From Escherichia phage JLBYU40, in sequence record NC_105514.1: DNA of 64,000 nucleotides, one strand, 5' to 3'. A program made the position numbers and the translations under genes. Of this stretch, positions 247 to 56,276 are shown in pieces (the stretch's first letter is position 1; each line of letters opens with the position of its first letter). The notes beneath the pieces were generated by a model. The model saw only the letters and a list, made by a program, of their open reading frames with translations, had not been told where the DNA came from and did no database searches.

Positions 247-250
247 AATA

Positions 251-2641: not shown

Positions 2642-2713
2642 TGCACCCTGTTCGTATCGAACGAACCTCTCAAGCTCTTCAGGCAAGCGCTAATCCATCT
2701 CAGCTAAAGGTGC
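2642..2713 (-). tRNA. probable tRNA-Phe (GAA)
   Basis: Acceptor GCACCTT/AGGGTGC, D-stem GCTG/TAGC, anticodon loop CTGAAGA, T-arm GTTCG-TTCGATA-CGAAC; anticodon stem weak (two U.U). Confidence 0.4.
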
Positions 2714-2719
2714 AAATTT

Positions 2720-2796
2720 TGGCAAACCTACTAGGACTCGAACCTAGACCGTACGGTTTTGGAGACCGACATGCTGTCCAGTAACACTCTAGGAAT
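2720..2796 (-). tRNA. possible tRNA-Trp (CCA)
   Basis: T-arm CTAGG-TTCGAGT-CCTAG with encoded CCA, anticodon loop CTCCAAA; acceptor pairing imperfect, 5' boundary uncertain. Confidence 0.35.
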
Positions 2797-2804
2797 GCAG
2801 AAAT

Positions 2805-2881
2805 TGGCGTCCTGTGCGGGGATCGAACCCGCAAATCCTACCTTGAAAGGGTAGTGACTTTACCAGTTTGTCTAACAGGAC
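2805..2881 (-). tRNA. tRNA-Glu (UUC)
   Basis: Acceptor GTCCTGT/ACAGGAC, anticodon arm CTACC-CTTTCAA-GGTAG, T-arm GCGGG-TTCGATC-CCCGC, CCA encoded. Confidence 0.7.
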
Positions 2882-2888
2882 TTAAATT

Positions 2889-2979
2889 TGGTGTTGGATG
2901 ATGGAGTCGAACCACCCGAGACCCTTCCGAGTCGGCAGATTTACAGTCTGCTTCGCTACCTCTACGATACTAATCCAAC
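2889..2979 (-). tRNA. tRNA-Tyr (GUA), long variable arm
   Basis: Acceptor GTTGGAT/ATCCAAC, anticodon arm GCAGA-CTGTAAA-TCTGC, about 18-nt variable arm, T-loop TTCGACT, CCA encoded. Confidence 0.65.
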
Positions 2980-3042
2980 ATATTTAAAAGTATTCAAATA
3001 CTAGTTTAAACACTTTTAAATATGTTTCCGAATTAGATAACT

Positions 3043-3071
3043 ATTATATCAAGTTTTAAGGCACTGAGCAA
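3043..3071 (-). promoter_or_regulatory. sigma70-type promoter driving the tRNA operon (-35 TTGCTC, -10 TATAAT)
   Basis: Plus-strand attata 3043-3048 and gagcaa 3066-3071, 17-bp spacer. Confidence 0.5.
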
Positions 3072-3107
3072 GTCAAATTTTAAAGAACTTGCTCAGTGCT
3101 GTATTAG

Positions 3108-3383
3108 TTAGTCGAACTTAGGAGTGACAGTTAAGGAGAACGGAAGTTCGAAAACTTCTTCGCCCTCATTACTAACGGTAACTACACGACCTTTAAGTTC
3201 AGACATTAAAATATCAATATCAGCTTTTGCATCTGGAGCCATGCCAGCTTCAATACATTTAGCTTTAACTTCCGGTAAAAGCTCTACGTTATAGAGATAG
3301 AGCCACTCAATCTCACCTTCCCAGTCTTCCCAGGATTTGCAGATTGCACTTTCAATACCAGTTGCTACAACACGATTTTGCAT
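3108..3383 (-). CDS. hypothetical protein (91 aa)
   Basis: ORF track. Confidence 0.45.
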   Translation of the reverse strand: MQNRVVATGIESAICKSWEDWEGEIEWLYLYNVELLPEVKAKCIEAGMAPDAKADIDILMSELKGRVVTVSNEGEEVFELPFSLTVTPKFD

Positions 3384-3413
3384 TAATTAACTCCTTCATC
3401 AATTTATATAACT

Positions 3414-3443
3414 ATTATACCAGAAATTTAAAGTAAAAGGCAA
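3414..3443 (-). promoter_or_regulatory. sigma70-type promoter (-35 TTGCCT, -10 TATAAT)
   Basis: Plus-strand attata 3414-3419 and aggcaa 3438-3443, 18-bp spacer. Confidence 0.45.
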
Positions 3444-3473
3444 GTACATTTTTAAAAATTCTGTTTGGAGGAG

Positions 3474-3680
3474 CTAAACTCCAGATTTTTCGGCCAAGTC
3501 TAGACTAATAAGAGTTATAGCCATAATTGCTGCACCGTGTTCTTTTTCTCCGGTGTTTTTAGCAGAGTCTATAATATCCTTAATCTGTTCGTAATAACTT
3601 TTTACTTCTTGTTCAATGCCTGCCTCGGCTATCATGCCTTTAGCCATGAATCGTTGCATGGTAATTTCAGGATTAGCCAT
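3474..3680 (-). CDS. hypothetical protein (68 aa)
   Basis: ORF track; start overlaps stop of upstream small ORF (ATGGCTAA). Confidence 0.4.
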   Translation of the reverse strand: MANPEITMQRFMAKGMIAEAGIEQEVKSYYEQIKDIIDSAKNTGEKEHGAAIMAITLISLDLAEKSGV

Positions 3681-3840
3681 GTTGTTTCTCCAGTTTCATT
3701 TTTAATAGTTTACAGATGAAATCAACGTCTTCATCTGTGCCTAAGTCTCTATCCTCAAGGGTCGCCTTGAAGTTTTTCGTCAATTCCATGAGGATGACTT
3801 CCCTAGAACGACGTGTTGGCGGAGGTGGATGTCTATACAT
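3673..3840 (-). CDS. hypothetical small protein (about 55 aa)
   Basis: Hand-read ORF (MYRHPPPPTRRS...) with SD AAGGAAA upstream of ATG at 3840; stop overlaps next start. Confidence 0.35.
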   Translation of the reverse strand: MYRHPPPPTRRSREVILMELTKNFKATLEDRDLGTDEDVDFICKLLKMKLEKQHG

Positions 3841-3855
3841 CTTATTTCCTTAATT

Positions 3856-3932
3856 TGGTAGGGGTGGTGGGATTCGAACCCACAAAACCTGAATTTTAAG
3901 TCCAGTACCTATGCCAATTCGATTACACCCCC
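3856..3932 (-). tRNA. tRNA with UAA anticodon but short variable arm (identity uncertain)
   Basis: Acceptor GGGGGTG/CACCCCT, anticodon arm CTGGA-CTTAAAA-TTCAG, T-arm GTGGG-TTCGAAT-CCCAC, CCA encoded; D-arm poorly paired. Confidence 0.45.
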
Positions 3933-3939
3933 GTGTAAT

Positions 3940-4128
3940 TTAGTCAATTACTTTTGAAGCTTCAAGGTAGTCGATATAGTGTACGTTTTCTACCGTAATC
4001 ATATAATCTGCCACTTTATCCATAGCTTGGGCTTCAGAGGTAGCTCTGGCTAACCTATATCCTTTTTTATATTCATCAGAGTATTCTCTATCTTGAATAA
4101 ACACAACATAAACTACGTATAATTCCAC
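3940..4128 (-). CDS. hypothetical protein (about 62 aa; GTG start inferred)
   Basis: The 111-aa ORF in the track runs into tRNA genes; AGGGGG then GTG at about 4128 gives a tRNA-free CDS. Confidence 0.3.
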   Translation of the reverse strand: MELYVVYVVFIQDREYSDEYKKGYRLARATSEAQAMDKVADYMITVENVHYIDYLEASKVID

Positions 4129-4150
4129 TTGTAACCCCCTAATTAAGTTG

Positions 4151-4225
4151 GTGGCTCCCCGAGGATTCGAACCTACGTACCTTCCGGTTATGAGCCGGGT
4201 GCTCATACCATATGAGCTTGAGAAC
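4151..4225 (-). tRNA. tRNA with CAU anticodon (Met or Ile2)
   Basis: Acceptor GGTTCTC/GGGAGCC, D-stem GCTC/GAGC, anticodon arm CCCGG-CTCATAA-CCGGA, T-loop TTCGAAT; no encoded CCA. Confidence 0.5.
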
Positions 4226-4231
4226 CAAAAT

Positions 4232-4320
4232 CTGGCGGAAGAAGTGGGAATCGAACCCACAAGGCTATATTTCAAACCGACAGATTAGCAATCTGCTGCA
4301 ATACCGTTATGCTATTCTTC
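4232..4320 (-). tRNA. tRNA-Ser (GCU), long variable arm
   Basis: Acceptor GGAAGAA/TTCTTCC, anticodon arm GCAGA-TTGCTAA-TCTGT, long variable arm, T-arm GTGGG-TTCGATT-CCCAC, CCA encoded. Confidence 0.65.
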
Positions 4321-4342
4321 CGAATTTATAAGATATATTATA

Positions 4343-4864
4343 TTAGAAATTTAGCTTCATAGCAAGAAAATTTTTCAAGTTTTCGGTAGACATCTCATCT
4401 ACATCTACAGGAGAAACAAAGCCGTTTAATTTTCTAGCAAATTTTTCACCATCGGGATCATTGTCTCCAACAGCTACCAATTTAAAAGGTAGTAATTTCA
4501 GTTGCTTTAATAACGCTTTTCCTGGAGAAGAACCCAACATTGCTAGGGCTGGATAACCAGCGTTATGTAACGCAACTGCCTTAAATACAGATTCAGCAAT
4601 CAATACTACTTTTTCATCTCCATTGAGAGTTTCTAGTCCCCATACACACTGGGTAGTAGAATAAGTAAAGTATTTAGCTTCAAAGGGGCACTTACCATGA
4701 CCTTTTGGAGCAGAAGGATTATAAGTTTGATAGCCCCTCAACATCCCAGAGAAGTCATACAACGGGACTGTTAGCCATCCTTCTGGACTTAACCAGCAAT
4801 GATATTTATCTGTATCAAATCCCCTAGATAAGAGGTGCTGTGTTAGCTCATCAACATTCATATT
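4343..4864 (-). CDS. Toprim-like domain protein (hypothetical)
   Basis: Motifs IAESVFK and LVAVGDNDPDGEKFARKL resemble a Toprim acidic patch; start moved to MNVDEL. Confidence 0.4.
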   Translation of the reverse strand, partial: NMNVDELTQHLLSRGFDTDKYHCWLSPEGWLTVPLYDFSGMLRGYQTYNPSAPKGHGKCPFEAKYFTYSTTQCVWGLETLNGDEKVVLIAESVFKAVALHNAGYPALAMLGSSPGKALLKQLKLLPFKLVAVGDNDPDGEKFARKLNGFVSPVDVDEMSTENLKNFLAMKLNF

Positions 4865-4891
4865 TGGTTCCTCTCTCAAATTTATAGATAT

Positions 4892-4920
4892 ATTATACAG
4901 AGAATTTAGCATTCAAGCAA
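4892..4920 (-). promoter_or_regulatory. sigma70-type promoter (-35 TTGCTT, 17 bp, -10 TATAAT)
   Basis: Plus-strand attata 4892-4897, aagcaa 4915-4920. Confidence 0.6.
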
Positions 4921-5036
4921 TCAAATTTTTTAACTTTTTAGAGGAAAATCATAGGGCGCTTAAGGGTAACAGATAAGTGGTGAGGACCAAAATTTGTGAC
5001 CCCACTAAAAATCCGGGGGCAATTTTTAAAGACCCC

Positions 5037-5065
5037 TTGACATTTTCGCTGGGGTAGTGTAAAGT
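5037..5065 (+). promoter_or_regulatory. sigma70-type promoter (-35 TTGACA, about 17 bp, -10 TAAAGT)
   Basis: ttgaca at 5037-5042; TAAAGT/TATAT-like -10 about 17 bp downstream; followed by SD AGGAGG. Confidence 0.5.
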
Positions 5066-5127
5066 ATATGTTATGGATGAGTGATCAAAGAGACACACAT
5101 TTTCTATATACTAGGAGGTGTCAAAAA

Positions 5128-6114
5128 ATGACAGAAGAAGTAGCTAAGAGTCCTGAGACCGTCGCTAGCGTTGCAGCAGAACTGCACCGTCACGAGGAAT
5201 CAGATAAGAAAAAGTGGGAGAAGGTCAGAGCCTACGAAGAAAAACATCGTGAACACGATGATGAAGAAGATGACGATGATGAACATTGTCATAAATATGG
5301 AAAACATAAAATGCAAGAACCAGTAAACGTATTCACTAGTGGCTTCCCTGGCCTACTGGGTGGTTACCCAGCAAACGCAGGTGCTTTCGGTGGTGAAGGT
5401 ATGGGACTATTCGGAGCTATCCTAATCGGTGCTCTATTAACAGGTGGATTCGGTGGTTTCGGTGGATTCGGTGGACGTGGTGTAGTTGGTGAAGGTACCG
5501 CAGTTGATGCAGTACTTCAGAACCAAGATACCGCTAGTATTCTAGCAGCTATTAACACTACTCGTACAGAAGCTAATCAGGGTACTGGGGCTGTGTTAAG
5601 CGCAGTTAACAATGGTTTTAGCCAGACATCCCAAAACCAGAGCCGTGATACTCAGTCTGTACTAACTACGATTTATGGTACAGGTGCTAATCTGTCTAAT
5701 CAGATCTGCCAGGAAACTCGCAACGTTATTCAGGGTCAGTTCGATCTTTCTCGCCAGATTGATCAATCTTTCGCAGCTAACCAGATAGCTCGTGCACAAG
5801 ATAAATTTGATTCTGCACAGATCGCTTTCCAGCAGACTTTACAAACTAATAACCAGTTTGCCGCTGTTCAGGCTCAGATGTGTGCTAACCAGAACTCTCT
5901 GGAACGTCAGATCGCTGAATGTTGCTGTGAACTTCAGACTGCGATCGCTGGTGTAACTACTGCGCGTATCCAGGATGAGTTAGATGCATGTCGCCTACGT
6001 GAGGCAATCGCTGCGGGTAATGGTGCTAACGATCAGGTAATTAATCAAATCGCTGTAAGTCTTGGTGCAATCACTCAGACTCTGGCTGGTCTGCAGGCTA
6101 AACTGCCGGCTTAA
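5128..6114 (+). CDS. hypothetical protein: acidic/His-rich N-terminus, Gly-zipper hydrophobic segment, long Gln/Asn/Ala-rich helical region
   Basis: ATG 5128 after AGGAGG; GFGGFGGFGG and GAILIGALLTGG; codons biased to highly expressed E. coli-like usage. Confidence 0.6.
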   Translation: MTEEVAKSPETVASVAAELHRHEESDKKKWEKVRAYEEKHREHDDEEDDDDEHCHKYGKHKMQEPVNVFTSGFPGLLGGYPANAGAFGGEGMGLFGAILIGALLTGGFGGFGGFGGRGVVGEGTAVDAVLQNQDTASILAAINTTRTEANQGTGAVLSAVNNGFSQTSQNQSRDTQSVLTTIYGTGANLSNQICQETRNVIQGQFDLSRQIDQSFAANQIARAQDKFDSAQIAFQQTLQTNNQFAAVQAQMCANQNSLERQIAECCCELQTAIAGVTTARIQDELDACRLREAIAAGNGANDQVINQIAVSLGAITQTLAGLQAKLPA

Positions 6115-6135
6115 TATTAAGGGGAGGAGCCCATT

Positions 6136-6552
6136 ATGAGTAAATATGGTTTTGTAAATAACGGACTTAATCAAAGTATGGGCTCCCAGCAGCCCATTCC
6201 GGGTCTGGATAACCCCTACTTACAACAATTGCAACAGCGTTTAGCAGAAGCGCAACAGATGCAGCAACAACTCCAGCAAAACCCTGGAAGTGTGAGTCCT
6301 ATGCAAATGATGCAGCAAATGAGCGGGCAGTCGCAAATGCCTCAACAAATGCAGCAACAGGTGCCTCAGCAGCAAGTTCAGCAACAAACCCAACAACCGC
6401 AGGTTTCTGCGGAAGGACAGGCAGTACTAGCCCTTTTCGAAGACTTCGCAAAGACAGAGGATGGGAAACAGCTTGTATCACTTATGGGTAAGTTTAATAG
6501 CTTCTGCCAAAGCCAGGTTGCAAAAGCTCAAAATAGTGGTAATAACTCCTAA
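6136..6552 (+). CDS. hypothetical Gln-rich protein (138 aa)
   Basis: ORF with SD GGGGAGGAG upstream; about 35% Gln in the central region. Confidence 0.5.
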   Translation: MSKYGFVNNGLNQSMGSQQPIPGLDNPYLQQLQQRLAEAQQMQQQLQQNPGSVSPMQMMQQMSGQSQMPQQMQQQVPQQQVQQQTQQPQVSAEGQAVLALFEDFAKTEDGKQLVSLMGKFNSFCQSQVAKAQNSGNNS

Positions 6553-6561
6553 GGAGGAATT

Positions 6562-6756
6562 ATGTGTTGCAGAAAATCTGTTTCGTGCTGCCCAATGCCT
6601 GTAGCACGTTGTTGCTCTCCAGCAATGTTTACGCAAATACCGGCGTTCAATCCGTTTGCCTTTAAGCCTACTCTTATCCTGCCCCCTAGAGTAGATTTTC
6701 AGTCAAGATTGGCCTCCCGTATGGGTAGTTGCTGTAACAAGAGTATATGGTTCTAA
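6562..6756 (+). CDS. hypothetical Cys-rich small protein (64 aa, four CC doublets)
   Basis: Strong SD AAGGAGGA 5 nt before ATG; 8 Cys arranged as CC pairs. Confidence 0.4.
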   Translation: MCCRKSVSCCPMPVARCCSPAMFTQIPAFNPFAFKPTLILPPRVDFQSRLASRMGSCCNKSIWF

Positions 6757-6772
6757 GGAACCAAACAATAAA

Positions 6773-6806
6773 GCCCCTAGTCGAAAGACTTAGGGGCTTT
6801 TCTTTT
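6773..6806 (+). terminator. rho-independent terminator
   Basis: GCCCCTA/TAGGGGC stem followed by TTTTCTTTT. Confidence 0.6.
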
Positions 6807-6816
6807 ATCTTAAATA

Positions 6817-6851
6817 CAGAAAAGCCCTGCGCTCTCTAGGAAACGCAGGGC
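6817..6851 (-). terminator. rho-independent terminator for the convergent minus-strand gene
   Basis: GCCCTGCG/CGCAGGGC 8-bp stem; U-tract on minus strand (plus-strand agaaaa). Confidence 0.55.
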
Positions 6852-6876
6852 TTATTTCAGATGTTACATGCGGGTA

Positions 6877-7824
6877 TTATTTATTACGCATATCCATAAT
6901 CATTTGGCCATCATAGCCAGTGCCAACCACAGTCTGCGGTACACCACCTTGGTATTTCTGAGCACGAATCATTTCAACTTCCAGTTGCTTCCAGCGAATC
7001 ATCTCAGGAGTAATGGTACGTTGCAATGCGGCGTTAGCTTCAGCTTCTTTCTTAGCTGCATATAGTTTAGCATCTGCGTCACGTTCATTGGCAATAGCTT
7101 GGTTGTTGCGAGCTTCACGGTCTGCTTCTGCTTGTTTAACTTTTTGCTGTGCTTCCTGTTCAACGCGAGCCAGTTCAGCTTTCGCAGCATTAACTTGCTC
7201 TTCACGAACTTTGGTATTCTGTACCTGTTCCATGATTACCGGTGGCAAAGTAATATCCTGAAGGAATACCTGCTTAACTGTATAACCATATGGGCGTGCA
7301 TACTCTTCAACTTCCTGTTGAATTGCAGTTTGCAATTGAGCCTGAATTTTAGCATCAAACAAATCTTGTGCTTTAGGTACAGACTTACCAAACTCACGAA
7401 TAGTAGACAGTAATTTTTCAGTTACATACTTGTCTAGTGCCTGATCCTGAGTACCTGCGTTAATACGGTTAATTGGTGCCTTAGAACCATCAAACTGCAA
7501 CATAACAGTCAGGTCAACAGTGGATTTAAACTTATCCTGGCTAGGAACCTGAAGTTTATCTAATTTTACAGCAATATCTTTTGTACTAAAAGTGTCGAAA
7601 GATGCAAATGGGTTTACAAGATGGAAACCTGGTAATACTGGGTTAGGATCTACTTTACCCAGAAATGTTTGGGTTTTAACCGTACCATCAGAAACAATAG
7701 TATATGAATTAAAAGCTAGGATTAAACCTGCTAAACCAACTACAGCACCAATACCCCAACGTTTAATAGTACGAATTACTTTCTGCTCAGAAGTCAGTTC
7801 TTTCATATTTTTAGTATTAAACAT
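6877..7824 (-). CDS. SPFH / band-7 (prohibitin/HflK-like) membrane protein
   Basis: N-terminal TM helix (GIGAVVGLAGLILAF), then SPFH-like core and Ala/Glu/Gln-rich coiled coil. Confidence 0.6.
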   Translation of the reverse strand: MFNTKNMKELTSEQKVIRTIKRWGIGAVVGLAGLILAFNSYTIVSDGTVKTQTFLGKVDPNPVLPGFHLVNPFASFDTFSTKDIAVKLDKLQVPSQDKFKSTVDLTVMLQFDGSKAPINRINAGTQDQALDKYVTEKLLSTIREFGKSVPKAQDLFDAKIQAQLQTAIQQEVEEYARPYGYTVKQVFLQDITLPPVIMEQVQNTKVREEQVNAAKAELARVEQEAQQKVKQAEADREARNNQAIANERDADAKLYAAKKEAEANAALQRTITPEMIRWKQLEVEMIRAQKYQGGVPQTVVGTGYDGQMIMDMRNK

Positions 7825-7858
7825 ATATTTCCTTTGTTTTAGTTACAGTTAATAAAAT

Positions 7859-7933
7859 TGGCCGAGGTGACAGGATTCGAACCTGCATAAAGGAATTTAG
7901 AAGACTCCTGCCTCTCCCTTAGACTACACCCCG
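7859..7933 (-). tRNA. tRNA-Arg (UCU)
   Basis: Acceptor CGGGGTG/CACCTCG, anticodon arm GGAGT-CTTCTAA-ATTCC, T-arm GCAGG-TTCGAAT-CCTGT, CCA encoded. Confidence 0.65.
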
Positions 7934-49292: not shown

Positions 49293-49317
49293 TCTACATA
49301 TAAAATAAATAATAAAC

Positions 49318-49351
49318 CCCAGTGGACAAAATCCACTGGGGTTTTCTTTTA
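49318..49351. terminator. bidirectional rho-independent terminator at the early/late boundary
   Basis: CCCCAGTGGA-CAAAA-TCCACTGGGG 10-bp stem with T-tract on the plus side and A-tract on the other. Confidence 0.7.
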
Positions 49352-51118
49352 TTGTGATACTAATTGTACCTTTAATTGCTCAAGCTCTTTCTCTAGATCT
49401 TCAATCCGTTTAATAAGATCTTGCACAACATGCATAGTGTCAAGAAGCATTGGAGTTGTATCTAGTTCCTTTTGCTCCTGCTCTATTCCGTCATCATTAT
49501 AAAATTTTCTAGTTTTTACATAAAGTGGTTCTATAGTCTCTACTTGCTGAGCAATAACCCCACGTCGGACACGAGATTTTTCATCGTTATTATATACAAA
49601 GGATTGGAATTCTAATCCTTTTAATACCTCGATGGACTTAGTTGCGTCTATAGCCTTAATATCATGCTTTAAGCGAGAATCAGATACAGCATTTAATTGC
49701 AAAGTATAGGTTGCTGAAGCACCTGGCCACCAAGAATAAAAATAAATACTATTATTATTCGGCTGAATTTTTAAACGCACACCAAATTTATTATCATCAT
49801 CTCCCGCTACCTGCCAACAAGAATCTGCAAATGAGCCTAAGTCATTATGAATTAATCCAAAATGTGCAGATGTCTTATACCCTGCGGAAGAAGACTGGGA
49901 ACCGCTCAATATACTATAAAAGTTAAATGTACTACCTATATTGACCTCGTTCTGAGAAAGAGTACCTTGTACCCGGCCAGTCTGAGACCACGCCATGCCA
50001 GTAACTAATCTAGCTTTAAAACGATCCGTTACAAAATCCCCATTATCTACAAGCTGGGCGGAATTCGATTTACCGGTAGATTTATTGTCTATTAGTAGTT
50101 CAGTAGAGTAGGTGCCACCAATAGTAGCTTTAGCTCGTAGTGTACTTACAGCCTCACTACTAGTACCTACTTTATACTCAGATAGTACACTCCCTCCATA
50201 AACAGTAGTACCAGTATTAGGTTTGACAACACCACCACTAATAACACTCCACGAAGTCTTTGCAGCCACGAACCCACCAGAAGCACGGATTACCCAGACA
50301 CCTATAAAGCTGTTTGGAATAATAGTACCTTTTATTCCATAACGCCCATAAACAGGGTCCGCTAAGTTTGCATCAAAACTAAATCCGTATTGGTTATCAG
50401 GATTAACTACGGCAAATGATTTAGATGCACCTCCAGGAGCGGCACCTAAGCCGTTTTCACCACCAATCGCCCCAATAAGACCAAATCTAGATGAATATCT
50501 ATTAAGCGCTTCTTCATATGCACCAGCAATAGCGCCAGGAAAACTACCAGTAATATTGGGTGCTGCAGCTTCTGATATTGAACCAGCTTGACCAGCATCT
50601 CCCCCACCGTCACCACGAGCGAATAACCCTTTGATTGAATCTAGTTGCACACCATTACGATCTGGGACGCGGAAAGTAGTGGTACCATCTCCCGTAGAAT
50701 ATTTCCCACGTTGTTTGATATCAGACACCCAAATGTCATCACTAATTGCCCCCACCATTTGAGCGTAAGCCCAAAGCTCCGGCCAGTCAGCCCTGTTAAG
50801 AAGCTGCCCATCAGAAACTACCTCATAAGGTTGAATATACGCACGGCTATCTCGAAGATGAAAATCCCCCACCCCGTAGTTCATAACACCATTCATTGTG
50901 GGTCCTACTGTGCCAGTATTAAGTTTGTTCTCCACCCAACGCTTAGTTGCGGCATCATAGTCCCCAACAGGATCCCCCGCAAGAGGGGTGGACCCAATAG
51001 GACGCACATTTAACCATGCTGCTGCACGGTCTGCTAAGTCACTTAAATTATTATTCTTGTTAAGTGACTCATTTTTAAGTTTTGTAATATCCGTAGGAAT
51101 TACTGTTTTAGTTACCAT
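49349..51118 (-). CDS. tail fibre protein with C-terminal intramolecular-chaperone (S74-like) domain
   Basis: C-terminus ...SDSRLKHDIKAIDATKSIEVLKGLEFQSFVYN...GVIAQQVE matches autoproteolytic chaperone of phage fibres. Confidence 0.7.
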   Translation of the reverse strand: MVTKTVIPTDITKLKNESLNKNNNLSDLADRAAAWLNVRPIGSTPLAGDPVGDYDAATKRWVENKLNTGTVGPTMNGVMNYGVGDFHLRDSRAYIQPYEVVSDGQLLNRADWPELWAYAQMVGAISDDIWVSDIKQRGKYSTGDGTTTFRVPDRNGVQLDSIKGLFARGDGGGDAGQAGSISEAAAPNITGSFPGAIAGAYEEALNRYSSRFGLIGAIGGENGLGAAPGGASKSFAVVNPDNQYGFSFDANLADPVYGRYGIKGTIIPNSFIGVWVIRASGGFVAAKTSWSVISGGVVKPNTGTTVYGGSVLSEYKVGTSSEAVSTLRAKATIGGTYSTELLIDNKSTGKSNSAQLVDNGDFVTDRFKARLVTGMAWSQTGRVQGTLSQNEVNIGSTFNFYSILSGSQSSSAGYKTSAHFGLIHNDLGSFADSCWQVAGDDDNKFGVRLKIQPNNNSIYFYSWWPGASATYTLQLNAVSDSRLKHDIKAIDATKSIEVLKGLEFQSFVYNNDEKSRVRRGVIAQQVETIEPLYVKTRKFYNDDGIEQEQKELDTTPMLLDTMHVVQDLIKRIEDLEKELEQLKVQLVSQ

Positions 51119-51127
51119 TATAAAACC

Positions 51128-51406
51128 TTACGCCCACTCTCTAAGAGGCTGTTCCAACTGAACTATAAAAGGCTCAAAGTATTCATAAGTAAAGGATTCA
51201 CCAAGAATCCTTACATTAACATAGTATCCTTCATTACGGGTGTATCTAGGTTCCTCATCGCCTGGTGCGGAGATTTCAGTATAAGTATAGCCAATCTCGT
51301 CCAGGAGAAACATATCTCGTAACTCTTCATTTTCTTGCCAGTTTATTCCAACTAAGAAATTTTTATATTCGTTCTTGTCTTTAAATTTTAATATTATATC
51401 TTTCAT
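51128..51406 (-). CDS. hypothetical protein (92 aa)
   Basis: ORF track. Confidence 0.4.
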   Translation of the reverse strand: MKDIILKFKDKNEYKNFLVGINWQENEELRDMFLLDEIGYTYTEISAPGDEEPRYTRNEGYYVNVRILGESFTYEYFEPFIVQLEQPLREWA

Positions 51407-53775
51407 ACAGACTCCCTCATTTGACGATCCGTTAATTCTTTATGCCAGATTCTAAAATTTCTGACATGCCCGAAAAGATGTTTCCCACCATCTGCACTTA
51501 TGCCGCCGATACGAAGATTTTTAGATAAACCAGCTTTCCATGTTGTTTTCACAGGCGCACCGAACACAGCGTTTGTTACGCATCTTAATTCTGAGCTTTT
51601 GTTGCAAACAAAACCCGTCACCATTTTCCCGCTTGTTTTTGTTGATACTGGCGTAAATGACTGACTGACCCCCAACTGAGAATAAGGCAGCGGCTCTACT
51701 GTATCGCTTGATGGAACCCTGAAAGCAACTAATAACTGGTCTTCTGGTGCATTTGCTACATGTACTATCCTTGGTGCTGAGTTTGGGGCTATATCCCAAT
51801 TTCTATTTACCTCAACAAGTAGACTTAACGGTATAGAGGATGGTTGATTGCAATCAGTTGGTATTAGGACCATGTCACTAGCTCTTGTGGCGGGCGTACT
51901 GCTTGTAATTATGAACGATGAAGCGCATGACCCTTTTTCAATTTGCGGAGTAGTCACCTCAACAAAACTAGAATCATCATAAGTGGCATCGGCTTTTTGC
52001 ACAATCTGAATTCCACCGTTAATATATGCTGAGTTATCTGTAACTTTATAAACAACCTCTATAGCAACCCATTCACCATCCTGAACAACATTTTTCACAG
52101 TGATGTTAGACGCATCCTGCCCGGACGTGAATGTAGCTAGCGTGTCGCTGTCAATAAAAAGAACAGCAACAGTAGCAGGTGTTTCTCCTTTGCTAAATCT
52201 AGCAACAAATCTTAGATTATGTCCTCTTGCCCTAAACGATAGTGTAACTGCGTCATCTTTAACTACAGATATATTGTTTTGCGAGTTACCTAATATAATC
52301 CCATATGTACCAGTAGAGCCAGAGTAAACACCAGGCCCGAACGTTGCATATTTAAAACCACGATCATCGGTTTTTGTTTCACTTTTGCTTAGCCCTGAAT
52401 TCGAGTTCCATAATTCTGGCGCGTTTGAATTCGCAAAATAGTTAGTTCTCTGACCTTCAATAAGCAGACCTTCTTTTTCAAAACGTGGCTCATTAATTTC
52501 TGCAATGGTAAGAGCGCCGGACTTATTAATATATGTCGCAGTTGATGCACGGGTAAAGCTAACAATCTTGTCGCTAGGCAGTGTTATTTCCTCATCACCG
52601 ACTGTTATTTTTTTATAGCCTGGTGCAAAGCCGGTGATCATATCTAGAGAATCATTAAACGGTATCCATACATCTGGAAGAGGTTGAATGTCGGGGGTAG
52701 AATTAGCAGCAGCTTCTGATCTATCAGCCTCAGTTTTTGAACGGTCGGCTTCAGTTTTAGCAGTATTAGCACTATTGGCAGCACTAGTAGCTTGTTTTCC
52801 TGCTTCAGTAGCAGAATTGGCAGCACTAGTTGCAGAAGTTGCAGCTTGGTTTTTTAGCGCGGTAGTTTCTGTTATCGCGCTATTTTTAATGCCTTGTGTA
52901 TCTGTTTTTAACTGCGCAACATCTGCCTTTATAGCTGTTGTCTCTGTTACAGCACTGTTTTTAATGGCCTGAGTATCTGATTTTAGTTGCTCAACATCTG
53001 ATTTTAAGCCTTGAATAGTAGTTACTGACTGACTAGCTGAAGTTGCGGAACTAGCTGCGTTAGTCTCACTAGCTTTGGTTTTAGTCTCACTAGCTTTTGC
53101 ATTAGTCTCACTAGCTTTTGCATTAGTTTCAGAGGTTTTTGCAGCAGAAGCTGATGTAGCAGCTTGTGTAGAGAATGTTTCCGCCTCATTCCTAAAACCA
53201 CTGGAATCCGCAGCGGAAGCGGCAGCATTAGTCTCACTGACCTTTGCATTATCCTCACTAAGTTTTGCCGCTGCAGCCGAAGCAGTAGCATTAGTTTCAC
53301 TAGCCTTAGCATTAGTCTCGGAGGCCTTAGCTTTGGTTTCACTAGACTTTGCATTAGTTTCTGATGTTTTTGCATTAGTCTCGGAGGTTTTAGCCTTAGT
53401 TTCACTAGCTTTCGCATTAGTCTCGGATACTTTAGCTGCTGCGGCTGATTCTGCAGATTTATCCGCTGATGCAGCAGATTGAGTAGCAGATGTAGCAGAC
53501 TGAGTAGCAGAAGCTTCTGAAGCTCCGGCAGAAATAGCAGCTTCCTGCTCCGAATTCTTAGCATTAAGCTCTGAGGTCTTAGCTGCTATCTCAGAATCTT
53601 TTGCAGCTGCAGCAGATTTAGCAGCGGCCTCTATAGAAGATACTAACTCACTAGCAGTAATAGAACTAATAGAATTTCCAAGAATTACTGTATATCTAGG
53701 AAATTTACTAGCAGTAGCTTTCGTATCATCTATATTCAGTATTTGTTGCACAATAATTTTAGTAGTTACCGCCAT
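51403..53775 (-). CDS. tail fibre protein (proximal part) with tandem heptad-like repeats
   Basis: 790 aa; long run of SETNAKA/SETKAKT repeats then beta-rich C-terminal domain. Confidence 0.65.
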   Translation of the reverse strand: MAVTTKIIVQQILNIDDTKATASKFPRYTVILGNSISSITASELVSSIEAAAKSAAAAKDSEIAAKTSELNAKNSEQEAAISAGASEASATQSATSATQSAASADKSAESAAAAKVSETNAKASETKAKTSETNAKTSETNAKSSETKAKASETNAKASETNATASAAAAKLSEDNAKVSETNAAASAADSSGFRNEAETFSTQAATSASAAKTSETNAKASETNAKASETKTKASETNAASSATSASQSVTTIQGLKSDVEQLKSDTQAIKNSAVTETTAIKADVAQLKTDTQGIKNSAITETTALKNQAATSATSAANSATEAGKQATSAANSANTAKTEADRSKTEADRSEAAANSTPDIQPLPDVWIPFNDSLDMITGFAPGYKKITVGDEEITLPSDKIVSFTRASTATYINKSGALTIAEINEPRFEKEGLLIEGQRTNYFANSNAPELWNSNSGLSKSETKTDDRGFKYATFGPGVYSGSTGTYGIILGNSQNNISVVKDDAVTLSFRARGHNLRFVARFSKGETPATVAVLFIDSDTLATFTSGQDASNITVKNVVQDGEWVAIEVVYKVTDNSAYINGGIQIVQKADATYDDSSFVEVTTPQIEKGSCASSFIITSSTPATRASDMVLIPTDCNQPSSIPLSLLVEVNRNWDIAPNSAPRIVHVANAPEDQLLVAFRVPSSDTVEPLPYSQLGVSQSFTPVSTKTSGKMVTGFVCNKSSELRCVTNAVFGAPVKTTWKAGLSKNLRIGGISADGGKHLFGHVRNFRIWHKELTDRQMRESV
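53040..53460 (-). repeat. tandem imperfect 21-nt repeats encoding Ala/Ser/Thr-rich heptads inside the tail-fibre gene
   Basis: Plus-strand unit gcattagtctcactagctttt recurs back-to-back; creates long antisense ORF artefacts. Confidence 0.7.
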
Positions 53776-54197
53776 TATTTAGTTACCCCATCACTGATAA
53801 ATACTTTACCCTCCATTATACGAAAGGAGCTAATAGCTGATCCTATGACATCTCGTGTCATAATTATATCATAGTATCCTGCAAAACGTTGGCGAGGATT
53901 ATATTTATCTCTTTCTTTGGTGGCTTTGGCACCAATATTCTCTACCGCCTCTATGGGCAAACTTATGGCTATAGCACCTTGAGCAGCATCAATAATTTTA
54001 GTAGTAAAAGATGCCAAAGTCTCCGCATTCTCATCAAGACTGGCCTTTATAGTACCTCTTAGAGAATACCCTGTTAAGTTAACAGGGGTATTTGTAGGTG
54101 GATAAGTACTATCGTCAACATCTAAGAACTGCATCATTAGACCATAAGGTACTTTTTCATCTATTACTAAGTCTATAACTCTATTTTCAGTACTCAT
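53775..54197 (-). CDS. tail structural protein (collar-like, 140 aa)
   Basis: Size and position between fibre and baseplate genes match the T5 collar protein by synteny; inference only. Confidence 0.45.
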
Positions 54198-54203: not shown

Positions 54204-56276
54204 TTACCTTATATGGATATACCCACTATTTAGGTCTATCTTCATCTTGTAGTATGCCTCAGGGTTTCCCGATAATGCAGCATTCCTATCATAAATGATG
54301 TTAACACCGATCTGAGATAAGAAAGCATTTCCTGCTACAATTTTATCTGCCGTCACCGTTCCGTTAACAATCATGTTTCCGTGGAGAACCATTGCAGGGT
54401 TAACCCAACCAGACCCATTCCATTGCCTTGTAAATGCTGATTGTGGGGCATTACTATTAAATTCAGTTAATACATCGTATTTAACTGGTGGAGAACCGAA
54501 GTTACTTTGAAAGAAGGAATTAGCTTGTCCATCATCCCAACCACCTAAACCTGCTATACCTACAGAATACATCCCAGGACCACGTTGTCCATCATGCCCT
54601 ATAGTACCTTCAGTACCACTCCACTGAACTACATCCGACCAGCTAGTACCCTCTAATAACCTATTAGTAACTGGATCAAGCGTACCTGTAGTGGCATAGA
54701 TATTTTGTGTCATATCTGTACGGTTAGGTGGAGTTTTTGACCAACCAGGAGGAGGATAATCTTGTTCTAGTGGTTTAGCAGGTAGAGATGTTGCTAACTT
54801 ATAAACAAATACTGTTTGCTTACCTTGCATACCAGTACCAAGATCTACATCGCCATTAGGAGTTCCAATAACTACCCCACTAGAAATACGTAGCACATCA
54901 CCATCATAACGAATCCACTGTGTGGCATTACCAATGTCTAATTTAGCTTTGGCAGAGGTATTATCCATACCCATCCAAATACCAGAGTTATTATCCCCCC
55001 AAGATTTACCTTGAGTGTAAATTGCTGGATTATCCTTACCAGATAAGTTAGTCATGATAAAGTTCGCAGCATTAATATCTCTAGTAATTACTTTACCATC
55101 AACGTTAACAACACGGTTTATGGGGTCAAAAGAAATAGGTGCTTTTCCTTCTTCGTCTAGCAGACCAATGTTAATAGCACCAGTAGCTGCGTCGATTAAG
55201 AATGTCTGTCTCCAGATTTCTCCATCTTTCATGCTGCCCTTAATAAAGGCATAATTAACATCAATACCCGTCTCATTGACAAAGCTGTTGTCTAGGGGAG
55301 TATCTTCATTAAGTATAAACGTTACAGGAGCTGATTCTGTTATATCTTGCTTATTTGGTCCCCAGGCAATTGATGATACCTTAAAAGTATGCTCAACTTT
55401 CCACGGGAATGATATAATCGTTGCAGCTCTAGCAGCCCCAACGTTTATCTTTTGAGCTTTAGCCCAGCCAGTCTTAGCGTATTCTTCAGAGTTTATATAA
55501 GTAACCAGAAATTCACGGACATTAGCACCCGCACCACGTTCCCAGTCCCACTCTATTCTGACATCATATCGTTCCTTACCATCTGCAATTCGTGCAGCTT
55601 TAAAGGCAATGTTAGTAGGTGCAGTAGGTGGTACAAAATTATAAGCTACAGTGAAAATGCTCGGATATTCATAATAACCAGATGAGTCAACTGTAATACC
55701 ATCTGGCATCGTAACTTGACCAGATATTCTGATCTTATAGTCGCCAACAGGAACACCACCAAATTTGATAGTAGGTCCCAATGCGCCTATATAATATTTA
55801 ACCCATTCACTATCTTCTGATGCAGTACTTTTTAATTCAATAGTGCAGTAACTAGCTTCACCAGCAGTCTCTACAACAACTATTGGAGCACCAACACCAA
55901 CGTCAACGGGTTCTGATTCAGATCTTGCTGTAGTAATTATTGGCTTTTCCTTTGTTCTAAAGTTAGTTTCATTAGAGAGGTTGATACCAATCTTAGCTTC
56001 CAGTAACTCTGAGTCAATAATTGAGTCATAGAAAGCCCCCTGAATCTCATAGGAGGTAGAGGGGGTTAGATTATTAATCATTACGAAGAAAGTATCTATA
56101 CCGGTGTAATCACGTCTATCTATACTTTCTCCTATTTTTAACCAAAAAGATCTACCAATAACATCATAATCAGTATAAATGGAGTGCTGGACATAAGCCA
56201 AAGTATATCCAGTCATTATACTATTTAAGACCATTTTGGCTGGTGCATTATTTGAAATCATTAAATGGATGCCCAC
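54204..56276 (-). CDS. tail tip / baseplate structural protein (690 aa)
   Basis: Beta-rich, Gly/Thr/Asn-rich; position upstream of the fibre genes. Confidence 0.5.
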   Translation of the reverse strand: MGIHLMISNNAPAKMVLNSIMTGYTLAYVQHSIYTDYDVIGRSFWLKIGESIDRRDYTGIDTFFVMINNLTPSTSYEIQGAFYDSIIDSELLEAKIGINLSNETNFRTKEKPIITTARSESEPVDVGVGAPIVVVETAGEASYCTIELKSTASEDSEWVKYYIGALGPTIKFGGVPVGDYKIRISGQVTMPDGITVDSSGYYEYPSIFTVAYNFVPPTAPTNIAFKAARIADGKERYDVRIEWDWERGAGANVREFLVTYINSEEYAKTGWAKAQKINVGAARAATIISFPWKVEHTFKVSSIAWGPNKQDITESAPVTFILNEDTPLDNSFVNETGIDVNYAFIKGSMKDGEIWRQTFLIDAATGAINIGLLDEEGKAPISFDPINRVVNVDGKVITRDINAANFIMTNLSGKDNPAIYTQGKSWGDNNSGIWMGMDNTSAKAKLDIGNATQWIRYDGDVLRISSGVVIGTPNGDVDLGTGMQGKQTVFVYKLATSLPAKPLEQDYPPPGWSKTPPNRTDMTQNIYATTGTLDPVTNRLLEGTSWSDVVQWSGTEGTIGHDGQRGPGMYSVGIAGLGGWDDGQANSFFQSNFGSPPVKYDVLTEFNSNAPQSAFTRQWNGSGWVNPAMVLHGNMIVNGTVTADKIVAGNAFLSQIGVNIIYDRNAALSGNPEAYYKMKIDLNSGYIHIR

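What the first reader, a model, noticed from the sequence alone, without database searches (positions are those of the whole stretch)
49349..53775. Tail fibre split into two genes, with a repeat-expanded shaft and a self-cleaving chaperone tip
The 790-aa protein carries dozens of near-identical heptad-like repeats (SETNAKA) encoded by 21-nt tandem DNA repeats, and the separate 589-aa protein ends in the SDxRxK-type autoproteolytic chaperone domain. A two-gene fibre with an expandable repeat tract is a likely host-range determinant and recombination hotspot.
Basis: partly seen in the sequence, partly recalled or inferred. Interest (0 to 1): 0.4.

Follow-up and report, generated by a model that had tools for sequence, protein, structure and literature searches.

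The report
T5-type side tail fibre gene module
This is the side (L-shaped) tail-fibre gene set of a T5-like phage, a three-gene type already described in phage IrisVonRoten, so it is ordinary apart from a small conserved 92-residue companion protein whose role nobody has worked out.

Summary
Two minus-strand ORFs of 790 aa (51403-53775) and 589 aa (49349-51118) sit between ltfC/pb4 and dut in a Tequintavirus genome. The 790-aa protein has 13 near-identical SETNAKA-type heptads, not "dozens", inside about 26-29 heptads in one register, encoded with a 21-nt period. The 589-aa protein ends in a Peptidase_S74 chaperone, with SDSRLK at residues 479-484.

A translationally coupled 92-aa gene (51128-51406) lies between the two ORFs. 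The first protein also ends in a roughly 430-aa lectin-like (LamG/galectin-type) domain.

The locus matches the IrisVonRoten (Bas32) type published in 2025: a proximal fibre with a galectin-like tip plus a "T-shaped" distal fibre with two receptor-binding domains. It is not the DT57C LtfA/LtfB type.

The module is a mosaic. The lectin tip is 99% identical to T5_ev219, RBD1 95% to mar004NP2, and RBD2 with its chaperone is shared with several phages. Shaft repeats change by whole units between relatives. Specificity, however, more likely lies in the swapped binding domains.

The trio of lectin-ended fibre, 92-aa protein and distal fibre with a conserved docking N-terminus recurs in T1-like, 9g-like, lambdoid and P1-like phages.

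Verdict: new member of a known kind, of modest interest.

The parts
53775..54197 (-). ltfC: collar protein that holds the lateral fibre on the tail tip. Context gene immediately upstream; its stop overlaps the fibre gene start.
   Evidence: Pfam PF23926 LtfC, E 1.2e-13. Same position as in T5_ev219, IrisVonRoten and DT57C.
51403..53775 (-). Proximal lateral tail-fibre protein, 790 aa (LtfA-like; equivalent to IrisVonRoten Gp22).
   Evidence: ORF. phrog_1419 E 5.9e-207 and phrog_24369 (a 1396-position tail-fibre profile) E 4.5e-49. N-terminus matches DT57C LtfA at E 5.6e-36. The mar004NP2 orthologue is annotated 'confirmed structural protein by MS'.
53659..53775 (-). N-terminal anchor (aa 1-39), which inserts into the LtfC ring.
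   Evidence: Closely matches DT57C LtfA residues 1-40. The role is taken from the DT57C cryo-EM structure (PMC10713586).
53026..53643 (-). Ala/Ser/Thr-rich heptad shaft (aa 45-250), inferred to be a trimeric alpha-helical coiled coil.
   Evidence: Unbroken heptad register. Lag-7 identity 0.52 against 0.17 in shuffles. The DT57C LtfA helix from T40 forms a three-helix bundle.
53281..53427 (-). SETNAKA block 1: seven consecutive near-identical heptads (aa 117-165).
53218..53259 (-). Two further SETNAKA-type heptads (aa 173-186).
53050..53133 (-). SETNAKA block 2: four heptads (aa 215-242). Copy number differs in T5_ev219 and L018, which have three.
52861..53010 (-). Two 25-aa (75-nt) repeats, LKSDVEQLKSDTQAIKNSAVTETTA-like (aa 256-305). 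T5_ev219 and EC100 have three copies; FGS017 has one.
52411..52686 (-). Conserved 'neck' that opens the C-terminal domain (aa 364-455, PLPDVWIPFNDSLDM...GLLIEGQRTN). It is the most conserved stretch across phage families and is the candidate joint.
   Evidence: Many invariant or nearly invariant columns in 71 homologues. Conserved in T1-like, 9g-like, lambdoid and P1-like versions. Low pLDDT as a monomer.
51880..52464 (-). First jelly-roll domain (aa 438-632), the 'phage head spike fiber' domain. Hypervariable allele.
   Evidence: NCBIfam NF048003, E 3.8e-14, 53.6 bits against a cut-off of 36. Most 10-residue blocks have mean pLDDT 84-95. 99% identical to T5_ev219 but 30-40% to other relatives.
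51406..51855 (-). Terminal LamG/concanavalin-like domain (aa 641-790), ending ...HLFGHVRNFRIWHKELTDRQMRESV.
   Evidence: Homologues carry Pfam PF13385 Laminin_G_3. Foldseek finds pentraxin, laminin LG, galectin and the fibre-associated chains of Pseudomonas phages Pa193 and E217.
51128..51406 (-). 92-aa accessory protein (phrog_1361; IrisVonRoten Gp23), translationally coupled to the proximal fibre gene. Function unknown.
   Evidence: Synteny in 80 IMG/VR loci. Model pLDDT 79.
49349..51118 (-). Distal fibre protein, 589 aa (equivalent to the IrisVonRoten Gp24 'T-shaped' fibre).
   Evidence: phrog_6921 E 4.9e-178. Matches DT57C LtfA 511-1073 and LtfB 206-785. 86-98% identical to T5_ev219, IrisVonRoten and mar004NP2.
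51068..51118 (-). Conserved docking N-terminus, MVTKTVIPTDITKLKNE (aa 1-17).
   Evidence: The same motif, M[VAT]TxTxIPxDIxxLK, starts the distal fibres of 9g-like, T1-like, lambdoid and P1-like cassettes whose remainder is unrelated.
50744..51067 (-). Conserved stem (aa 18-125), identical to or nearly identical with DT57C LtfA 526-627.
50249..50743 (-). RBD1 (aa 126-290), a variable block with a tail-collar/Gp12-like motif (FRVPDRNG).
   Evidence: 47-50% identical to most relatives but 95% to mar004NP2. Pfam Collar reaches only E 0.049. The Gp12-like assignment comes from PMC11990801.
49685..50248 (-). RBD2 (aa 291-478), the T5-like distal tip.
   Evidence: 98% identical to T5_ev219, IrisVonRoten and mar004NP2, but 27-29% to EC100 and L6jm. 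The T5-like assignment comes from PMC11990801.
49352..49684 (-). Intramolecular chaperone (aa 479-589): Peptidase_S74 domain followed by a C-terminal coiled coil. The predicted nucleophile is Ser479 and the predicted base Lys484.
   Evidence: PF13884 E 3.7e-12. SDSRLK at 479. A profile search hits the MYRF ICA domain 7dc3 (E 2.6e-8) and phage S16 gp37 6f45 (E 5.8e-6).
49314..49344 (.). Bidirectional intrinsic terminator between the convergent fibre operon and dut.
   Evidence: Stem of 14 bp with 7 G-C pairs and T-runs on both strands.

Best explanation
The region is the lateral (L-shaped) tail-fibre operon of a Tequintavirus, of the IrisVonRoten (Bas32) architectural type.

Proximal fibre (790 aa). 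It is anchored by its first ~40 residues in the LtfC collar. It then extends as a trimeric Ala/Ser-rich heptad coiled coil, which includes 13 SETNAKA heptads and two 25-aa repeats. It ends in a conserved neck followed by two lectin-like jelly-roll domains (a 'head spike fibre' domain plus a LamG domain).

92-aa protein. It is made in step with the proximal fibre by translational coupling.

Distal fibre (589 aa). It attaches through a conserved N-terminal peptide (MVTKTVIPTDITKLK) at or near the proximal neck. It carries two receptor-binding regions: a collar/Gp12-like RBD1 and a T5-like RBD2. It folds with the help of its own C-terminal S74 intramolecular chaperone, which then cuts itself off at Ser479. 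That would leave a mature protein of about 478 aa.

Function. The fibre binds O-antigen-type surface glycans reversibly as the primary receptor. Irreversible binding is then made through pb5.

Host range is changed by exchanging three binding modules (the lectin tip, RBD1 and RBD2) by recombination. The shaft repeats expand and contract by unequal recombination or slippage, which mainly changes fibre length.

Status of each step:
- Shown here: gene content, domain assignments, homologies, module mosaicism, repeat copy-number differences and cassette synteny.
- Inferred from published relatives: anchoring, trimeric coiled coil, O-antigen binding, T-shape and autocleavage.
- Unresolved: the role of the 92-aa protein. 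My estimate is about 50% an assembly factor or cap for the chaperone-less lectin-ended proximal fibre, about 35% a structural adaptor in the proximal-distal joint, and the rest something else.
For: Identity and context:
- Nearest records are Tequintaviruses with the same gene order dut / distal fibre / 92 aa / proximal fibre / ltfC / pb4.
- The replication region is ~96% identical to many Tequintaviruses.

Proximal fibre:
- The N-terminus matches DT57C LtfA at E 5.6e-36. The DT57C structure shows LtfC anchoring and a three-helix bundle.
- The heptad periodicity has a z-score of about 14.
- The C-terminal domain matches NF048003 above its cut-off. Homologues carry PF13385 LamG.
- The AlphaFold2 model is all-beta, and most 10-residue blocks of model residues 91-250 (protein aa ~450-609) have mean pLDDT 84-95. 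It hits pentraxin, laminin-LG, galectin and phage fibre chains.

Distal fibre:
- S74 is above threshold and SDSRLK is present.
- The protein is homologous to DT57C LtfA 511-1073 and LtfB 206-785.
- A profile search hits other intramolecular chaperones.

Published description of the orthologous IrisVonRoten proteins:
- Gp22 is a proximal fibre with a galectin-like domain.
- Gp24 is a T-shaped dual-RBD fibre with an intramolecular chaperone.
- The phage can infect E. coli K-12 expressing O16 O-antigen, so the authors suggest it recognises this glycan as primary receptor (PMC11990801 and PMC8594841).

Mosaicism: see the module identity table and the RBD1 tblastn search.

Repeat dynamics.

Cassette conservation:
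- In 76 of 77 IMG/VR loci with a readable upstream ORF, the 92-aa gene follows an ORF with an ...RIWHK... LamG end. The overlap is 4 nt in 59 loci and 1 nt in 16.
- In 30 of the 80 loci, a gene with the docking motif starts 2-12 nt downstream (9 nt in most).
- The same trio occurs in 9g-like JenP1, T1-like, lambdoid and P1-like elements.
Against: - The proximal-distal joint and the T-shape rest on one paper's AlphaFold-Multimer models.
- The Gp12/collar assignment of RBD1 is below the Pfam threshold (E 0.049). A PDB profile search did not retrieve T4 gp12.
- Pfam gives nothing for the 790-aa protein itself.
- In the mar004NP2 virion proteomics only the proximal fibre was detected. The 92-aa protein and the distal fibre were not, though only eight proteins were detected in all.
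- One lambdoid prophage lineage has the lectin-ended fibre and the 92-aa gene but no distal fibre. The 92-aa protein therefore cannot be solely a distal-fibre adaptor.
- The receptor glycan of this particular phage is unknown.
Confidence: 0.8

Rival explanations
1. It is a DT57C-type branched fibre. Under this reading LtfA and LtfB are two independent receptor-binding fibres, each with its own S74 chaperone. LtfB would hang from a phiEco32 gp14-like docking region in the middle of LtfA.
For: There are two large fibre genes at the same genomic position. The 589-aa protein is 42% identical to DT57C LtfB 206-785. Michniewski et al. called the mar004NP2 orthologue 'ltfB'.
Against: The 790-aa protein has no S74 domain. 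It aligns to LtfA only over residues 1-~220, not to the 223-471 docking region. The 589-aa protein lacks the first ~205 residues of LtfB, including the gp15-like attachment peptide, and has a different N-terminus. It aligns slightly better to the distal half of LtfA itself (44%, E 9e-142). A 92-aa gene absent from DT57C is present.
Confidence: 0.07
2. The 92-aa protein is a structural adaptor that stays in the virion. Its N-terminal third would bind the LamG end of the proximal fibre. Its conserved C-terminal two-thirds would bind the conserved N-terminal peptide of the distal fibre. The trio would then be a portable plug-and-socket joint.
For: The gene always lies between the two fibre genes in T5-like, 9g-like, T1-like, P1-like and some lambdoid elements. 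Residues 1-35 co-vary with the LamG end (97/94/89% where the LamG end is 99/97/95%, and ~54% where it is ~39%). Residues 36-92 stay 86-100% identical in nine of the ten relatives, and the distal N-terminus (aa 1-125) likewise in nine of ten. The distal fibres already have their own chaperone (S74 or Tfa), so the 92-aa protein is not needed for them.
Confidence: 0.35
3. The 92-aa protein is a dedicated assembly factor, functionally Tfa-like, for the lectin-ended proximal fibre. That fibre, unlike the distal one, has no intramolecular chaperone. The protein would not be a stable part of the joint.
For: It is coupled to the lectin-ended fibre in 76 of 77 loci by overlapping stop and start codons, whether or not a distal fibre follows. 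The proximal fibre lacks S74. Fibre chaperone genes typically lie immediately downstream of their client gene (general knowledge of the lambda, Mu and P2 Tfa proteins).
Against: There is no similarity to Caudo_TAP or any known chaperone family. The strong conservation of its C-terminal part across lineages that share the distal docking peptide is not explained.
Confidence: 0.5
4. The repeat tract is an assembly artefact (collapse or expansion).
For: Tandem 21-nt repeats can in principle be mis-assembled from short reads.
Against: The copies are diverged (65-92% matches). The tract spans about 440 nt with unique flanks. Four independent genomes have the identical shaft length, and others differ by exact whole units in frame.
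Confidence: 0.02

Closest known systems
Lateral tail fibre of Tequintavirus IrisVonRoten (Bas32): Gp22 proximal fibre, Gp23, and Gp24 'T-shaped' distal fibre (Humolli et al., PLoS Biol 2025, PMC11990801)
   Same: The gene order and sizes match (796/92/574 aa against 790/92/589 aa). The anchor and shaft are 93-97% identical. The distal stem, RBD2 and chaperone are 98-99% identical. Both have a galectin/LamG-like C-terminal domain on the proximal fibre.
   Different: The lectin domain allele is only 30-39% identical and RBD1 only 48%, so receptor specificity probably differs at least in part. The window's module combination (T5_ev219-type lectin tip with mar004NP2-type RBD1) is found only in one IMG/VR contig, L018, at 95.7% nt identity.
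DT57C / DT571/2 branched LTF, LtfA + LtfB (Golomidova et al. 2016, PMC4728585; Ayala et al. 2023, PMC10713586, PDB 8hqz)
   Same: Both share the LtfC collar, the LtfA N-terminal anchor and the coiled coil. The distal stem is near-identical to LtfA 526-627. Both have an S74 chaperone, serve as an O-antigen primary receptor binder, and have tandem repeats in the shaft that change copy number.
   Different: In DT57C both proteins carry S74, LtfB docks on a phiEco32 gp14-like mid-region, and there is no lectin tip and no 92-aa gene. Here the LtfA-like polypeptide is interrupted: lectin domain, 92-aa gene and a new docking peptide replace LtfA ~230-510.
Phage T5 pb1 (Ltf), a single-polypeptide L-shaped fibre with a C-terminal intramolecular chaperone (Garcia-Doval et al. 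2015, as cited)
   Same: Both have the N-terminal anchor (phrog_24369, 1396-position profile, E 4.5e-49). Both have the same genomic position and the S74 chaperone with a Ser-Lys motif.
   Different: T5 uses one 1396-aa chain, has no lectin domain and no separate distal subunit.
Lectin-ended lateral or side tail fibres of T1-like (JK16, swan01), 9g-like (JenP1/JenP2, VogelGryff), lambdoid prophage (PF08400 N-terminus) and P1-like S-segment fibres
   Same: The neck plus jelly-roll/LamG C-terminal domain is 43-81% identical. The same 92-aa gene follows, and then a short distal fibre with the same docking N-terminus.
   Different: Each virion type has its own N-terminal attachment domain. The distal fibres are unrelated and much shorter (224-351 aa), and they use either S74 or a gp37_C tip with a Tfa chaperone.

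Membership tests
T5-like lateral (L-shaped) tail fibre, LtfA/pb1 N-terminal family | N-terminal anchor homologous to T5 pb1 / DT57C LtfA | tested here: met
   phmmer against PDB 8hqz_d gives E 5.6e-36 over residues 1-215. phrog_24369 E 4.5e-49 and phrog_5481 E 1.1e-85.
T5-like lateral (L-shaped) tail fibre, LtfA/pb1 N-terminal family | Encoded next to ltfC and pb4, convergent with dut | tested here: met
   PF23926 LtfC and the four PB4 Pfam domains lie upstream. The order is the same in T5_ev219, IrisVonRoten and DT57C.
T5-like lateral (L-shaped) tail fibre, LtfA/pb1 N-terminal family | Trimeric coiled-coil shaft attached to the LtfC ring | not testable with these tools
   Only inferred, from the heptad periodicity and the DT57C cryo-EM structure.
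Peptidase_S74 intramolecular chaperone (endosialidase / T5 pb1 type) | Pfam PF13884 match above the gathering score | tested here: met
   46.8 bits against a cut-off of 22, E 3.7e-12, residues 479-531 of the 589-aa protein.
Peptidase_S74 intramolecular chaperone (endosialidase / T5 pb1 type) | Ser...Lys catalytic motif S-D-x-R-x-K at the start of the domain | tested here: met
   SDSRLK at residues 479-484. The region including this motif is identical in the T5_ev219 and IrisVonRoten proteins.
Peptidase_S74 intramolecular chaperone (endosialidase / T5 pb1 type) | Autoproteolytic release after trimer folding | not testable with these tools
   Requires protein chemistry.
DT57C-type branched LTF (LtfA + LtfB) | Both fibre proteins end in an S74 chaperone | tested here: not met
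   The 790-aa protein has no S74 hit even at E 10. It ends in a LamG-type domain.
DT57C-type branched LTF (LtfA + LtfB) | LtfA mid-region (223-471, phiEco32 gp14-like) and LtfB N-terminus (gp15-like) that form the branch point | tested here: not met
   BLASTP of the 790-aa protein against LtfA aligns only up to LtfA residue ~219. The 589-aa protein aligns to LtfB only from residue 206.
IrisVonRoten-type two-part LTF (proximal fibre with galectin-like tip + T-shaped dual-RBD distal fibre) | Orthologous three-gene locus | tested here: met
   The layout and sizes are the same. Conserved modules are 91-99% identical.
IrisVonRoten-type two-part LTF (proximal fibre with galectin-like tip + T-shaped dual-RBD distal fibre) | Lectin-like (galectin/LamG jelly-roll) domain at the C-terminus of the proximal fibre | tested here: met
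   NF048003 at 53.6 bits against a cut-off of 36. Homologues carry PF13385. The model is all-beta with Foldseek hits to pentraxin, laminin LG and galectin.
IrisVonRoten-type two-part LTF (proximal fibre with galectin-like tip + T-shaped dual-RBD distal fibre) | Gp12-like RBD1 in the distal fibre | tested here: inconclusive
   Pfam Collar gives only E 0.049, 14 bits against a cut-off of 24. A PDB profile search did not find T4 gp12. The assignment relies on homology to Gp24 and on PMC11990801.
IrisVonRoten-type two-part LTF (proximal fibre with galectin-like tip + T-shaped dual-RBD distal fibre) | T-shaped trimer docked on the proximal fibre | not testable with these tools
   No multimer prediction is available.
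Tail fibre assembly proteins (Tfa, Pfam Caudo_TAP), considered for the 92-aa protein | Sequence or fold similarity to Caudo_TAP or a known fibre chaperone | tested here: not met

The most novel reading that the evidence does not exclude
The lectin-ended fibre neck, the 92-aa protein and the ~17-residue docking peptide may together form a universal, portable fibre joint. Such a joint would let unrelated distal receptor-binding fibres be plugged onto the side fibres of at least five phage groups and two tail morphotypes: T5-like, T1-like, 9g-like, lambdoid and P1-like. The 92-aa protein (phrog_1361, so far 'unknown function') would be the structural adaptor of that joint. I found no paper describing this role.
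Probability: 0.3. Interest if true: 0.5.

Novelty: new member of a known kind. Interest (0 to 1): 0.27.

Why it matters
Lateral tail fibres decide which O-antigen-covered strains T5-like phages can infect, so knowing the exchangeable parts is useful for host-range prediction and phage engineering.

This locus adds one more natural combination of three known binding modules. It also gives clean examples of in-frame repeat gain and loss in the shaft.

The only part with wider potential is the conserved neck / 92-aa / docking-peptide trio. If it is a true joint, it would be a ready-made interface for grafting new receptor-binding tips onto several phage chassis. As it stands, the finding is an ordinary example of a published architecture.

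Tried and rejected
- Pfam on the 790-aa and 92-aa proteins, even at E 10, gave nothing. NCBIfam gave only the spike-fibre domain.
- An exhaustive HMMER search with the 92-aa profile found only 68 clusters at E <= 1e-3. These included several 1300-1800-aa multi-PKD proteins with 5-7 weak stretches. Pfam shows these are PKD repeats, so I treated the hits as a chance resemblance of a beta-hairpin motif, not homology.
- A profile of 11 distal fibres searched against PDB sequences did not retrieve T4 gp12 or gp37, so the Gp12-like label could not be confirmed independently.
- Virion proteomics of mar004NP2 (PMC6563131) detected too few proteins to say whether the 92-aa protein is structural.
- The DT57C LtfA/LtfB model was considered and rejected on domain tests.
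- The assembly-artefact explanation was rejected on cross-genome consistency.
- The co-variation of the 92-aa N-terminal third with the LamG end is not decisive, because the two are adjacent in the DNA.
- The Cronobacter Drexlerviridae fibre paper (PMC12090712) proved irrelevant to this cassette.

Full report
**What is there.** The interval lies in a Tequintavirus (T5-like) genome.
- The replication region is ~96% identical to many such phages.
- The nearest record for the interval itself is T5_ev219, at 93% nt identity over 92% of the query.
- Five genes run head to tail on the minus strand: pb4 (54204-56276), ltfC (53775-54197), a 790-aa ORF (51403-53775), a 92-aa ORF (51128-51406) and a 589-aa ORF (49349-51118).
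- The 790-aa stop and the 92-aa start overlap (ATGA). The 589-aa gene starts 9 nt after the 92-aa stop.
- The operon ends at a strong bidirectional terminator (49314-49344), shared with the convergent dut gene.
- The same five-gene layout is annotated in T5_ev219, IrisVonRoten, mar004NP2, Baret, EC100, Es2, L6jm and FGS017. VSe12 and KS_S14 have it too, but with a broken distal-fibre gene.

**Checking the observation.**
- The heptad repeat is real. Residue identity at lag 7 over aa 45-250 is 0.52, against 0.17 +/- 0.025 in shuffles. DNA identity at lag 21 is 0.55, against 0.37 +/- 0.02.
- TRF reports 21-nt arrays and a 75-nt x2 repeat.
- "Dozens of near-identical" repeats is too strong. There are 13 SETNAKA-type heptads (7 + 2 + 4), embedded in about 26-29 heptads that keep one register from about aa 45 to 250.
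- The S74 chaperone is confirmed (PF13884, E 3.7e-12), with SDSRLK at 479-484.

**The proximal protein (790 aa).**
- Residues 1-215 match DT57C LtfA (PDB 8hqz_d, E 5.6e-36). In that structure the N-terminus is woven into the LtfC ring, and a helix from T40 forms a three-helix bundle (PMC10713586).
- The shaft is 27% Ala, 17% Ser and 14% Thr.
- From PLPDVW (aa 365) onwards, a search of 5.8 billion proteins found 2696 relatives. Many are annotated LamG (PF13385) or "phage head spike fiber domain". They carry the N-termini of T1-like, 9g-like, lambdoid (PF08400) or P1-like fibres.
- NCBIfam NF048003 matches aa 438-632 above its cut-off.
- An AlphaFold2 model built on 71 homologues is all-beta. 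Most 10-residue blocks of model residues 91-250 have mean pLDDT 84-95, while the first ~83 residues (the conserved neck) are unconfident as a monomer.
- Foldseek finds fibre-associated chains of Pseudomonas phages Pa193 and E217, pentraxin, laminin LG, galectins and the lectin-like half of clostridial toxin binding domains.
- The fibre therefore ends in a lectin-like double jelly roll, a candidate glycan binder.

**The distal protein (589 aa).**
- It aligns to DT57C LtfA 511-1073 (44% identity, E 9e-142; the first ~115 aligned residues are nearly identical). It also aligns to LtfB 206-785 (42%).
- Its first 13 residues have no counterpart in DT57C.
- Among 10 T5-like relatives, aa 1-125 are 93-99% identical in all but VSe12, whose gene is disrupted. 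Aa 126-290 are a swapped block (27-50% in nine relatives, 95% to mar004NP2). Aa 291-589 are either 98-100% identical or replaced (27-37%).
- Humolli et al. (PLoS Biol 2025, PMC11990801) describe the IrisVonRoten orthologue Gp24 as a "T-shaped" fibre. It has a Gp12-like RBD1, a T5-like RBD2 and an intramolecular chaperone, and attaches to the proximal fibre Gp22, which has an extra galectin-like domain. IrisVonRoten can infect E. coli K-12 expressing O16 O-antigen, so the authors suggest that glycan is its primary receptor.
- I could not confirm the Gp12-like label independently (Pfam Collar E 0.049; no gp12 in a PDB profile search).

**Which known type it is.** It is not the DT57C LtfA/LtfB type (PMC4728585).
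- The proximal protein has no S74 domain.
- The proximal protein lacks the gp14-like docking region of LtfA.
- The distal protein lacks the gp15-like N-terminus of LtfB.
- It is the IrisVonRoten type.
A DT57C-LtfA-like chain is interrupted after the coiled coil. The inserted material is the lectin domain, the 92-aa gene and a new docking peptide, and the chain then continues as the distal half.

**Mosaic structure.**
- The lectin domain (aa 456-790) is 99% identical to T5_ev219 alone among 50,697 phage records.
- RBD1 is 95% identical to mar004NP2, with PMBT29 and KS_S14 at ~94-95% and SPLA5b at 90%.
- RBD2 and the chaperone are shared with T5_ev219, IrisVonRoten and mar004NP2.
- An IMG/VR contig (L018) has the same combination at 95.7% nt identity over 8.3 kb.

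**Repeat dynamics.** Shaft length before PLPDVW ranges from 125 to 382 aa in the ten T5-like genomes where the motif is found, plus L018. All differences are in frame and most are whole repeat units.
- L018 and T5_ev219 have one heptad fewer in block 2.
- T5_ev219 and EC100 have a third 25-aa unit.
- FGS017 has one 25-aa unit fewer and an extra heptad.
- VSe12 lacks exactly 98 aa (14 heptads), which fuses the two SETNAKA blocks.
- KS_S14 lacks the whole tract.
- This supports the tract as a slippage or recombination hotspot.
- Four genomes share the same 364-aa length as the window, which argues against an assembly artefact.
- The shaft sequence itself is conserved while the binding modules are replaced. 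Specificity most likely lies in the modules, and the repeats tune length.

**The 92-aa protein.**
- It belongs to phrog_1361, "unknown function".
- It is highly conserved (mean column identity 78% over 52 sequences). Invariant positions run along its whole length, and the C-terminal QPLREWA stretch is invariant or nearly so.
- The family is small: 68 clusters at E <= 1e-3 among 1.84 billion representatives.
- Its model (pLDDT 79) is a small alpha/beta domain with a floppy C-terminal tail. Fold searches are uninformative.
- Synteny is the main evidence. In 80 IMG/VR loci, 76 of 77 readable upstream ORFs end with the LamG motif and overlap the 92-aa start by 4 or 1 nt. In 30 loci a gene beginning M[VAT]TxTxIPxDIxxLK follows 2-12 nt downstream, 9 nt in most.
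- The trio occurs in 9g-like JenP1, a T1-like phage, a lambdoid prophage and P1-like elements. In the P1-like case it sits in the invertible S segment next to a resolvase.
- The distal fibres in these cassettes are otherwise unrelated. They bring their own chaperone, either S74 or Tfa.
- One lambdoid prophage lineage beside sitABCD accounts for 45 redundant loci. It has the fibre and the 92-aa gene but a 97-aa hydrophobic ORF instead of a distal fibre.
- The firm partner of the 92-aa protein is therefore the lectin-ended fibre. Whether it is an assembly factor for that chaperone-less fibre (my estimate ~50%) or a structural adaptor in the joint (~35%) cannot be decided here.
- Its N-terminal third co-varies with the LamG end, but the two are adjacent in the DNA.

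**Verdict.** This is a correctly spotted but already described kind of fibre module: a new natural allele combination of the IrisVonRoten-type lateral fibre. Interest is modest. The one lead worth following is the conserved neck / 92-aa / docking-peptide trio as a possible portable fibre joint.

Noticed in passing
L026:1938-4585 (and about 45 near-identical IMG/VR loci, L026-L072, L074): A lambdoid prophage lineage next to sitABCD carries the lectin-ended side fibre and the 92-aa gene. These are followed by a 97-aa hydrophobic ORF (MDISPLLHALCAVAAQ...) with no Pfam match, and then the host genes. There is no distal fibre.
   Followed up: partly
L006:3882-7577 and L005:3209-7571: In P1-like elements the lectin-ended segment, the 92-aa gene, a gp37_C-tipped distal fibre and a Tfa gene sit in the invertible tail-fibre segment beside a Cin-like resolvase. 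The cassette is therefore one arm of a tropism switch in a myovirus.
   Followed up: partly
L005:6289-7041: The public gene call for the P1-like distal fibre starts at 6484. The frame is open from 6289 (MATVTTIPTDITNLK...), 9 nt after the 92-aa stop, so the conserved docking peptide was cut off by the gene caller.
   Followed up: yes
L015 (VSe12) 628-2248; L011 (KS_S14) 601-2369 and 2654-4327: Some sequenced relatives have broken distal-fibre genes (VSe12, KS_S14), and KS_S14 has also lost the whole repeat shaft. This is consistent with fibres being dispensable on rough laboratory hosts.
   Followed up: partly
L007:6247-6921: The T1-like cassette's distal 'fibre' is only 224 aa, with the S74 domain starting at residue 99. 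The mature piece would be under 100 residues, little more than the docking peptide and a short stem.
   Followed up: no
proteins P0195, P0207, P0215, P0225: The 92-aa profile gives multi-stretch weak hits to 1300-1800-aa proteins made of PKD repeats. This is probably a chance resemblance of the GYTYT...GYYVNVRIL hairpin to the PKD motif.
   Followed up: partly
DT57C LtfA residues 342-402 (PDB 8hqz_d): DT57C LtfA contains a second, weaker copy of the collar-like segment (FRLPD motif). It lies upstream of the copy that matches the window's distal fibre, so LtfA itself seems to carry two collar-type units.
   Followed up: no
window 85-7933, minus strand: There is a cluster of 12 tRNA genes (Met, Pro, Asp, Asn, Cys, Phe, Trp, Glu, Tyr, Leu, Ser, Arg), as is typical of T5-like phages.
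   Followed up: no
window 49314-49344: A perfect 14-bp-stem bidirectional terminator lies between the fibre operon and dut.
   Followed up: no
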